This document shows, in pieces, positions 48,001 to 51,000 of a stretch of DNA of 64,000 bases. Every line of letters starts with the position of its first letter. The stretch's first letter is position 1. Source of the DNA: Escherichia coli (lineage in GTDB: Bacteria > Pseudomonadota > Gammaproteobacteria > Enterobacterales > Enterobacteriaceae); the NCBI RefSeq assembly GCF_001677475.2, contig NZ_CP012498.1; one strand, given 5' to 3'. The position numbers are program-made.

Positions 48001-51000
48001 ACGAGCAATGTATTAAAGCTGTTTCCTTTTGCTATGGTGATGTGCTCTGTGGTGTGGTTTTATTTTTGCCCTGAATATATTCTCTCAGACATTGTTAATG
48101 ACTGGCATGATGCAGATACACTGGAAAAAATAGGGCTTGTCAGACTGTATCTGAAGACGTCTTTTATTCTTACAGTGGTGGGCGTTGTTATTTCATATCT
48201 TTCTTCAGATAAGTTTATACCCGTTAAGCGCAGGAAATGAGTCTGATGGTTATCATAAATATAACAGTGTGTGCATGTGTACAATATAAGTAAAGGTGCG
48301 TTATGGGATTTTTCTCATTTTTACGAAAGATAAGTAATAAAGAAAAAGGGGTTTTTATCAGTGAGGAGCATTGGTTCTCACTGCTGGAAAAGGTGAGTGC
48401 TTTTGATGAGGTCAGACAATGGGCTGAAAGTAATGGTGGGGCATATTATCCTCTGCTGGAGTGTCGTCGGCTTACAGACAGTGAAGATGTCAGGAAATCA
48501 GAGGATATACTGAACCGACTGGAGTTTATCGACAGAAGGTTTCGGGAATTCATCAGCATTATGTCTGAACATATTAATAATGATAAAACTAAATCCATGT
48601 GGGAGAGGAATTTGTCTGAATATCCACCGAAAAAAATATACCAGGTCCGGAGAGAGGGAGAACATCTGTCATTAAAAAATTACGGTGATGATATTACTCT
48701 GAACAGAGATACCGCCGTGGCTACGGTGCAGATTACTGTCAGCAGAAAATGCATTACTCAGGAAGAAATGGATGAATTATATGCATTGTCTGAGAGACTG
48801 AAAGAAAAGTGCGCCGGTAATTAAATTATATCACTGTGCCGGGAGATGATATGAGCCGGAAAATATTTGTACTTTTTGCCCTGACCACAGGACTGTTTAT
48901 TTCTGCCCATGCTTCGGAAAATGTGAATACACCCGAAAACCGCCAGTTCCTGAAGCAGCAGGAAACACTGAGTCAGCAGTTGCGTGAGAAGCCGGACACA
49001 CAACTGCAGGCATGGGCAGAACAGCAGGTCAGGGCGAATCCCCTTCAGCATGCCGATAACCAGTTTCTCGATGAACTGGTCCGTAAACAGCAGGCTGCTC
49101 AGAAAGACAAACCACAGCAGGGGGCCGTGTATTTTGTGTCGTTCTCCATTCCCGAAGAGGGACTGAAACGGATGCTGGGAGAAACCCGGCACTACGGCAT
49201 TCCGGCCACACTGCGGGGCATGGTGAACAATGACCTGAAGACTACCGCTGAAGCCGTGTTGTCTCTGGTAAAAGATGGCGCGACCGATGGTGTTCAGATC
49301 GACCCGACGTTGTTTTCACAGTACGGCATCCGCAGCGTGCCGGCCCTGGTGGTGTTCTGCAGCCAGGGGCACGACATCATCCGGGGAAATCTGCGCGTCA
49401 GGCAGGCGCTGGAAAAAGTGGCCGCCACGGGAGACTGCCGGCAGGTGGCTCAGGGACTGCTGGACGGCACCGGGGATAAGCCGCAATGAGTTTACCTGCC
49501 GGGTATTACCGGATTGACCCGGACATCCGTGCACTGGTGGCCGCGATGAACGTTCACGGATTCCGTACATATGCCTCCTGTCAGGGACATGGTTTCCCGG
49601 TCACAAAGCTGCTGCCTTATATTGCCTTTGCCTGTCCGGTAAAAATGGCTGCCCTTCTTGAGCAGCGACTGCGGCAGGATGCTGAATCAGCAATACCACG
49701 TCTGACATGGGGATGGTCGGTGAAGGGGGCTTTTAACAGTGACCTTCAGCTCTGTTTCCGGCTTCAGCCGGAAGGTCCTCATTGCTGGTATCACCGGTAC
49801 TGTCGTCGTTCACTGCGTGCAGACTTCAGGACGCTGATATTGTTACTGAAGTCGTTATCTGAGTAGTAATCCCGGTACGCCAGGAAGCTCCATACACCAA
49901 AATCAACACCGTTCTGAAGTTGAGATGACATCACTTCATTCTCCATTTGGTTCAGATTATGAAAGAAAAGATAAATACCTTTTTCAGGTCTCTGAATTTT
50001 AATGACTCCGGAAAACCGTGCAATATTTGTGCAATTGTTTTTTTTCTGAGCTTTTCTGTGTTTGCAGACAGCAACAGTGATTACCGGGCAGGTTCCGATT
50101 TTGCCCGTCAGATCCAGGGGCAGGGTATTGGCAGTATTCAGAATTTTAATCCGCAGGAGAGTATCCCGGGGTATAACGCGAACCCGGATGAGACGCAGTA
50201 TTACGGTGGGGTGACTGCCGGCGGGGATGGCGGTCTGAAAAATAACGGCACCACACAATGGGCAACCAGTGAAACCGGCAAAACCATCACAGAATCCTTC
50301 ATGAACAAGCCGAAAGACATTCTGTCACCGGATGCGCCGTTTATTCAGACCGGCAGGGATGTGGTGAACCGGGCTGACAGCATCGTGGGAAACACCGGAC
50401 AGCAGTGCAGTGCGCAACAGATAAACCGCAGTGAATTCACCAACTATACCTGTGAGCGGGATACGATGGTTGAGGAATATTGTTCCAGAACCGCCAGTAT
50501 CACAGGGGACTGGAAATACACGGATGAATATCGTGAGGTGACGATACCGCACTCACAGTTCCGGTTCAGTATGAACGGGCTGAAACTGGCGTTCAGTGTC
50601 ACGGCTCCGGTAACCGGTACAGTGGAAAGTGCATCATTGTCTGTATACGCCGCTTTTTTCTTCCTGAACTCTCGTTATACCTTCATGAATTCAACGTTCA
50701 ATGTTGGCCTGGCAAACGGGCAGTCGGGGACTTTCCCTCTGTCCGGGGCAACAGGTTTGCAGGTGACACAGGGGCAGGTACTGACCGGCAGTGGCTGTAC
50801 TGCTAACGGTAACTGCCTTTCTGGCGGGAACGGTGACCAACAGGTTTATGAGAAACTGGCCAGCGGCGCCTCCACCTTTACGCTGAAACTCAGGATGAAG
50901 GTCCGTGATAAAGAATGGGTTCCACGAGTGGAGTGGGTGGAGAGTTGTCCGTTTAATAAAGCGGATGGCGTGCTGAAAGGCACTGAGTGTTCAGAGCCGG

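What the first reader, a model, noticed from the sequence alone, without database searches (positions are those of the whole stretch)
49486..49866. Extra ORF translationally coupled to trbC, ahead of traN
A 126-aa ORF with tra-like GC content overlaps the trbC stop (ATGA) and precedes traN; it is not part of the canonical F gene list as I recall it. The Cys/His-rich sequence hints at metal binding. It may be a lineage-specific tra accessory gene.
Basis: partly seen in the sequence, partly recalled or inferred. Interest (0 to 1): 0.35.

Follow-up and report, generated by a model that had tools for sequence, protein, structure and literature searches.

The report
TYW3-like passenger gene in tra operon
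The extra ORF between trbC and traN is a real, conserved but dispensable passenger gene of conjugative plasmids; it encodes a small cytoplasmic protein remotely related to the archaeal/eukaryotic tRNA methyltransferase TYW3, and nobody has tested what it does.

Summary
A 126-codon ORF (49486-49866, +) starts inside the trbC stop (ATGA) and ends 92 nt before traN.

It is a genuine gene:
- It occurs in 687-850 plasmid records, always annotated "hypothetical protein".
- dN/dS is 0.17-0.21.
- AlphaFold models it confidently (pLDDT 85).

It is not an F-type secretion component:
- F itself lacks it; there trbC overlaps traN directly.
- One Salmonella plasmid carries only a deletion remnant.
- It has no signal peptide or membrane segment.
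- Homologues sit at five different positions in F-like tra operons. More distant ones lie beside SSB, topoisomerase III, relaxase or integrase genes of integrative elements and islands.

The family has at least 451 clusters at 50% identity and no Pfam or NCBIfam model. Its signature is T-x-A-S-C-x-G-H plus an N-terminal Asp.

Best reading: a minimal TYW3-like, Cys-based, probably SAM-using enzyme acting on nucleic acid for the mobile element. The biochemical function is inferred, not shown.

The parts
48851..49489 (+). trbC (upstream gene; its TGA stop lies inside the ATGA overlap)
   Evidence: ORF. Annotated TrbC in the identical plasmid segment L001. Translation matches TrbC of L009, L010 and L003.
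49486..49489 (+). ATGA start/stop overlap (translational coupling to trbC)
   Evidence: Read directly from the sequence. The same ATGA or TGATG overlap with whatever gene lies upstream occurs in 9 of the 13 distinct contexts examined.
49486..49866 (+). ORF X: 126-aa cytoplasmic protein with a minimal TYW3/Taw3-like (N-terminal helix + RAGNYA core) domain
49516..49518 (+). codon for Asp11, aligned with the SAM-contacting invariant Asp of TYW3 (Asp25 in SsTaw3)
   Evidence: HMM alignments to 2qg3, 2drv and 1tlj. Acidic in 104 of 107 family members. Role of Asp25 from PMC5311493.
49567..49593 (+). codons for Thr28-Tyr-Ala-Ser-Cys32-Gln-Gly-His35-Gly36, the family signature and predicted catalytic centre
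   Evidence: Invariant in A1. SC.G[HR] is present in 128 of 145 cluster representatives. Aligns to (S/T)xSSCxGR of TYW3.
49867..49958 (+). 92-nt spacer between ORF X and traN, with no promoter-like or + strand terminator-like site
   Evidence: In Klebsiella L003, X overlaps traN directly. In L009 and L018 an HNH endonuclease gene sits in this position.
49959..51863 (+). traN (downstream gene)
   Evidence: ORF. Annotated TraN in L001 and L027.

Best explanation
ORF X is a genuine protein-coding passenger gene. It was inserted between trbC and traN, is co-transcribed with the tra operon, and is translated by coupling to trbC. [quoted passage not shown] It lacks the SHS2 'roof' insert, has His35 in place of the TYW3 Arg, and lacks the second TYW3 His. 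Inferred mechanism: it binds SAM through the conserved N-terminal helix and uses Cys32 (with His35 and Asp11) to modify a nucleic-acid substrate, either element DNA around the time of transfer or a host RNA, to the element's benefit. It may act as a dimer that rebuilds the missing half of the cleft. It is not a building block of the F-type secretion machine and is not needed for transfer itself. What is shown: gene reality, coupling, dispensability, association with mobile elements, and the fold and motif resemblance. What is inferred: SAM use, the nucleic-acid substrate and the biological role. My confidence by sub-claim: real gene 0.97; not a T4SS part 0.8; TYW3-like homologue 0.75; SAM-dependent nucleic-acid modification 0.35.
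Confidence: 0.45

Rival explanations
1. It is a thiol enzyme that does not use SAM. Cys32-His35, with Asp11 or Asp113, would form a nucleophile/base pair for hydrolysis or group transfer (amidase, deamidase or acyl-transferase-like) on a protein, nucleotide or nucleic-acid substrate. The TYW3-like scaffold would be reused for different chemistry.
For: His replaces the TYW3 Arg in 106 of 107 members and the TYW3 SAM-carboxylate His is absent. C-x-G-H is the most conserved element, kept even where the preceding Ser varies (CCEGH, ACQGH, LCDGH). Asp113 is 96% conserved.
Confidence: 0.2
2. It is a non-enzymatic nucleic-acid-binding or adaptor protein. It would be a small RAGNYA-fold ssDNA/RNA binder, comparable to phage NinB, that assists DNA processing or establishment. 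The conserved motif would be structural or ligand-sensing.
Against: Near-invariant polar residues (Ser, Cys, His, Asp, Asn, Tyr) concentrated in one loop and helix are typical of an active site. A few members that have lost the Cys look like decaying copies (P0057, P0081, P0100).
Confidence: 0.15
3. It is a lineage-specific accessory factor of the F-type mating apparatus (pilus assembly or mating-pair stabilisation) working with TrbC or TraN. It might bind a metal through Cys/His.
For: It lies between two envelope Mpf genes and is translationally coupled to trbC. 664 of the 687 carrier plasmids are predicted conjugative.
Against: It has no signal peptide or membrane segment, unlike its neighbours. 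It is absent from F and disrupted in L012. Its position in the operon varies, and relatives occur without any T4SS nearby. Only one Cys and one His are conserved.
Confidence: 0.07
4. It is a chance ORF or annotation artefact with no product.
For: ORFs of similar length occur by chance on the opposite strand nearby. Every database calls it hypothetical.
Against: dN/dS is about 0.2. Protein-level conservation extends down to 35% identity in Vibrio plasmids. The family has 451 clusters. Two confident fold predictions agree.
Confidence: 0.01

Closest known systems
[quoted passage not shown]
   Different: 126 aa against about 190-210 aa, with no SHS2 insert domain. The essential Arg is replaced by an invariant His. 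The His73 equivalent is not conserved. All Pfam scores are below the gathering threshold. It is bacterial, carried on mobile elements, and has no wybutosine pathway around it. No activity is known.
Non-essential small genes of F-like tra operons (traR, trbA, trbE, trbJ, trbF, trbH, traP, artA, pED208 orfX1-4)
   Same: A small ORF embedded in the tra operon, co-oriented and coupled, variably present among F-like plasmids and dispensable for transfer (PMC5102898; PMC10939261).
   Different: No homology to any of them. Its slot in the operon changes between lineages. The family extends far beyond F-like plasmids into ICEs and genomic islands.
Accessory, conflict-related genes of conjugative elements (orphan methyltransferases, ArdC, RadC/ART polyvalent proteins, ParB-like and DUF1173 genes)
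   Same: Distant relatives lie in such neighbourhoods, for example L013 with DUF1173, ddrB-ParB and RadC + ART-PolyVal, and L007/L015 with AcaB, SSB and TopoIII.
   Different: In this window the gene sits in the Mpf part of the tra operon, which is expressed in the donor, not in the leading region. No anti-defence activity has been shown and there is no PADLOC match.
SAM-binding regulatory domain of eukaryotic MTHFR (8qa4)
   Different: 11-12% identity, no shared motif, and ranked below all the TYW3 chains. This is a fold resemblance only.

Membership tests
TYW3/Taw3 methyltransferases (PF02676) | Overall fold: N-terminal extension plus RAGNYA core | tested here: met
TYW3/Taw3 methyltransferases (PF02676) | SHS2-like insert domain forming the other half of the C-shaped cleft | tested here: not met
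   The model is H-E-E-H-E-E-H in 126 residues with no inserted domain. The same holds in P0156.
TYW3/Taw3 methyltransferases (PF02676) | Signature motif (S/T)xSSCxGR | tested here: inconclusive
   The family has T-x-[AGS]-S-C-[QE]-G-H. Thr, Ser, Cys and Gly are kept. The first Ser is mostly Ala. Arg, which is essential in TYW3, is His in 106 of 107 members.
TYW3/Taw3 methyltransferases (PF02676) | Invariant N-terminal Asp that contacts the SAM sulfonium (Asp25 of SsTaw3) | tested here: met
   Asp11 aligns to it in the HMM alignments with 1tlj, 2qg3 and 2drv. The position is Asp or Glu in 104 of 107 members.
TYW3/Taw3 methyltransferases (PF02676) | Invariant His at the end of RAGNYA strand 2 (His73 of SsTaw3; binds the SAM carboxylate) | tested here: not met
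   In the 1tlj alignment His73 falls on window positions 50/51. Those columns are A/S/C/T and S/P/D/T in the family. That alignment is weak (E=1).
TYW3/Taw3 methyltransferases (PF02676) | Score above Pfam's gathering threshold | tested here: not met
   The window protein has no hit at E<=1. The best family member scores 24.1 bits against 27, over profile positions 12-48 of 211.
TYW3/Taw3 methyltransferases (PF02676) | SAM binding and methyl transfer to a wyosine precursor in tRNA-Phe | not testable with these tools
   This needs biochemistry. PMC4417183's abstract states that wybutosine/wyosine does not occur in Bacteria, so the TYW3 substrate itself is not expected.
F-type (MPF_F) conjugation machinery components | Conserved presence across MPF_F systems | tested here: not met
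   Absent from F. X is in 687 records against 3,431 records carrying the same trbC 3' end, roughly one in five. It is a deletion remnant in L012.
F-type (MPF_F) conjugation machinery components | Fixed position in the operon | tested here: not met
   Five different slots were seen.
F-type (MPF_F) conjugation machinery components | Envelope targeting (signal peptide or membrane segment), as in TrbC, TraN, TraU, TraW, TraF | tested here: not met
   Maximum Kyte-Doolittle hydropathy over 19 residues is 1.35, and the N-terminus MSLPAGYYRIDPD is polar. No dedicated signal-peptide predictor was available.
Cys/His metal-binding (zinc-finger-like) proteins | Three or four conserved Cys/His ligands | tested here: not met
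   Only Cys32 and His35 are conserved; the other four Cys and three His vary. A mixed Asp/Cys/His site cannot be excluded by sequence alone.

The most novel reading that the evidence does not exclude
This would be the first bacterial, mobile-element-borne branch of the TYW3 class: a minimal Cys-dependent SAM transferase that conjugative plasmids and ICEs use to modify DNA in transit, or a host RNA. That would make it a new kind of epigenetic or anti-defence function, expressed from the transfer operon of about one in five F-like plasmids, including Klebsiella KPC plasmids.
Probability: 0.2. Interest if true: 0.75.

Novelty: new variant of a known kind. Interest (0 to 1): 0.45.

Why it matters
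F-like plasmids are the main carriers of resistance and virulence genes in E. coli and Klebsiella. About 700-850 sequenced plasmids carry this gene under purifying selection, yet every record calls it hypothetical and no paper in the searchable library mentions it. The two papers that define the TYW3 class characterise only archaeal and eukaryotic enzymes of wybutosine synthesis. A stripped-down bacterial relative that travels with conjugation genes would extend that enzyme class to a new substrate and a new biological setting. It might also reveal a donor-side nucleic-acid modification step in conjugation. If the protein turns out to have no effect on transfer or establishment, it remains one more well-conserved passenger gene of unknown function.

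Tried and rejected
- Pfam, NCBIfam and PADLOC scans of the window protein gave nothing; PHROGs gave only a marginal 19-residue match (E 0.0037) to an unannotated family.
- Foldseek against the PDB found nothing significant. The afdb50 library was unavailable.
- I tried to fetch full-length TYW3 sequences for a profile-profile (hhalign) test, using a 42-aa fragment of 2qg3. No candidates came back, so the test could not be run.
With A4 it returned only 7 loci.
- Domain fusions: ten long relatives have no Pfam domain. The long forms are tandem duplications of the same domain or low-complexity or mis-called extensions.
- Conserved partner gene: all-against-all BLAST of the neighbours from 10 contexts found none. 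The one hit (L013 upstream gene) is a second family member.
- Phage genomes: no tblastn match.
- Literature: nothing for TYW3 + conjugative, and nothing for the four RefSeq protein accessions. The comparative paper on F-like plasmids does not mention the ORF in the passages retrieved.
- Own promoter or terminator: none found on the + strand.
- Rejected readings: zinc finger (ligands not conserved), T4SS structural component, and chance ORF.

Full report
**1. The observation**

The window holds an ATG-initiated ORF at 49486-49866 on the + strand, 126 codons long. Its ATG overlaps the TGA stop of trbC in the string gcaATGAgt. It ends 92 nt before the traN ATG at 49959. Its GC content (53.3%) matches trbC (56.5%) and traN (52.2%). 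Two other non-canonical ORFs between traU and trbC have only 37-40% GC. No sigma-70-like promoter and no + strand terminator-like site lies between 48700 and 50200. The ORF should therefore be transcribed with the tra operon and translated by coupling to trbC.

**2. It is a real gene**

ORF length alone is not evidence, because chance ORFs of 123 and 155 aa lie on the opposite strand nearby. Conservation settles the question.
- Megablast finds the 381 bp in 687 plasmid records (Escherichia 420, Klebsiella 219, Salmonella, Shigella and others). It is annotated "hypothetical protein" wherever an annotation is listed.
- tblastn finds 850 records, 828 with one uninterrupted match over at least 80% of the protein. 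Identity goes down to 35% in Vibrio plasmids.
- Nei-Gojobori dN/dS against two orthologues is 0.17-0.21 at dS 0.24-0.41. trbC in the same plasmids gives 0.05-0.17.
- AlphaFold2 with a 20-sequence alignment gives a compact alpha/beta model with mean pLDDT 85 and pTM 0.78.

**3. It is a dispensable passenger, not part of the mating machine**

In F (NC_002483) trbC overlaps traN directly through the same ATGA device, so X is an insertion at that junction. The conserved trbC 3' end occurs in 3,431 plasmid records against 687 for X, roughly one F-like plasmid in five.

A Salmonella IncFII plasmid, predicted conjugative from its gene content, retains only the first 13 codons joined out of frame to the last ~35 codons. 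The internal deletion removes the conserved motif.

The protein has no hydrophobic segment (maximum 19-residue hydropathy 1.35) and a polar N-terminus. Its neighbours TrbC, TraN and TraU are exported.

Homologues occupy different slots in other F-type operons:
- trbC-X-traN in Klebsiella
- traW-X-traU in another E. coli plasmid
- traW-X-hyp-traU in Vibrio
- trbB-hyp-X-traH in Providencia
- traR-X-...-traP in Enterobacter

In 9 of 13 distinct contexts the start codon overlaps the stop of whatever gene lies upstream.

**4. The family**

A profile search of 1.84 billion cluster representatives gives 451 clusters at E<=1e-3 and 185 at E<=1e-10. None of the proteins tested has a Pfam, NCBIfam or PADLOC assignment above threshold.

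More distant members are also on mobile elements:
- after topoisomerase III in an AcaB/SSB/DUF3701-integrase element
- between a DUF3701 integrase and an SNF2 helicase
- near a relaxase, SLT, DUF1173, ParB-like and RadC/ART-PolyVal genes
- next to a TraI_2_C relaxase fragment
- in a Pectobacterium chromosomal island between DUF6387 and AlpA plus two integrases

No phage genome carries it. No partner gene recurs in the neighbourhoods. The long members are internal tandem duplications of the domain.

The signature is T-x-[AGS]-S-C-[QE]-G-H. SC.G[HR] is present in 128 of 145 representatives. Several exceptions still keep C-x-G-H, and a few have lost the Cys and look decayed.

Alignment A2 was selected on that motif, so the invariance of Ser31, Cys32 and Gly34 in it is partly by construction. 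Other conserved positions are independent of that selection: Asp/Glu11 (104/107), Asn22, Thr28, His35 (106/107), Pro44, Tyr45, Phe48, Trp77, Arg107 and Asp113. The other Cys and His of the window protein vary.

**5. What it resembles**

Sequence evidence agrees but is weak.
- Family profiles place 2qg3 (E 0.04), 2drv (0.09-0.13) and 1tlj (1.0) among the top four PDB sequences.
- 36 of 107 members hit Pfam TYW3 at E<=1. The best is 2.5e-5 at 24.1 bits, under the gathering score of 27, and covers only profile positions 12-48 of 211.

The alignments give this residue mapping:

| Window protein | SsTaw3 |
|---|---|
| R-I-D11-P-D-I | L-D25-P-D-I |
| T28-Y-A-S31-C32-Q-G34-H35 | T-Q-S-S47-C48-S-G50-R51 |
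| P44-Y45...F48 | P-W...F |

In TYW3, Asp25, Cys48 and Arg51 are essential. Asp25 and His73 are needed for SAM binding. The docked adenosine lies along the N-terminal helix (L24, I28, L32), and the Cys has been proposed as a methyl relay or nucleophile (PMC5311493; PMC2034487).

**6. Where it differs from TYW3**

- The protein is 126 aa with topology H-E-E-H-E-E-H. That is the N-terminal extension plus the RAGNYA core, without the SHS2 insert that forms the second wall of the TYW3 cleft.
- The essential Arg is an invariant His.
- TYW3 His73 aligns to positions 50/51, which are not conserved.
- Foldseek sees no significant PDB match.
- Bacteria do not make wybutosine (abstract of PMC4417183), so the TYW3 substrate itself is excluded.

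I therefore do not file it as a TYW3 family member. I treat it as a probable remote relative, a minimal variant of that fold class.

**7. Mechanism**

Shown here: the gene is real, coupled to trbC, dispensable and associated with mobile elements; it encodes a soluble basic protein (pI 9.5, family median 8.7); and it has a TYW3-like scaffold with matching Asp and Ser-Cys-x-Gly positions.

Inferred: it binds SAM along the conserved helix and uses Cys32, with His35, to modify a nucleic acid. RAGNYA domains typically bind nucleic acid on the open sheet face. It may act as a dimer, because tandem-duplicated forms exist. Expression from the tra operon means it acts in the donor when transfer genes are on. 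Neighbours such as SSB, TopoIII, helicase and relaxase in ICE relatives point to DNA metabolism.

The main rivals are a SAM-independent Cys-His enzyme, a non-catalytic nucleic-acid binder, and (unlikely) an Mpf accessory factor.

**8. Novelty and verdict**

The ORF is already annotated as a hypothetical protein, so its existence is not new. I found no paper that names it or links TYW3 to conjugation. The link to the TYW3 class and the picture of a position-hopping passenger of conjugation operons appear to be undescribed.

Noticed in passing
window 47902-48240 (+) and 48303-48824 (+): Two more non-canonical ORFs (112 and 173 aa) sit between traU and trbC. Their GC is 37-40% against 54-57% for the flanking tra genes, which suggests a recent foreign insertion. 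They have no Pfam or PADLOC hit. ORFs with similar N-termini sit in the same place in L018, L009 has hypothetical ORFs of matching size and position, and F and L010 have none.
   Followed up: partly
L009 2898-3320; L012 2702-3121; L018 8397-8819: An HNH endonuclease gene (140 aa) lies between X (or the X remnant) and traN in several F-like plasmids. The trbC-traN junction looks like an insertion hotspot for passenger genes.
   Followed up: partly
L012 2526-2700 (Salmonella Milwaukee pIncFII.1): An unannotated internal-deletion remnant of X: the first 13 codons fused out of frame to the last ~35 codons.
   Followed up: yes
L027 6225-6443 (-); window minus-strand ORF 49791-50258: PGAP annotates a 72-aa minus-strand hypothetical ORF in the X-traN spacer of pCFSAN004181P, overlapping the 3' end of X. 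I did not test whether it is real.
   Followed up: no
L018 (contig CAAGKF010000127.1, labelled 'Lachnospiraceae bacterium' MAG): The contig carries an E. coli-type F-like tra segment (traC to traN, with X at 89% identity). It is probably a mis-binned enterobacterial plasmid.
   Followed up: no
L013 6225-6746 and 7001-7957: Two family members lie on adjacent genes of a P-type conjugative element. One is 173 aa with a degenerate A-C-Q-G-E motif. The other is 318 aa and is itself an internal tandem duplication. They sit near DUF1173, ParB-like and RadC/ART-PolyVal genes.
   Followed up: partly
window 51877-52134 (+): The TrbE-like 85-aa ORF after traN has GC 40%, well below the surrounding tra genes.
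   Followed up: no
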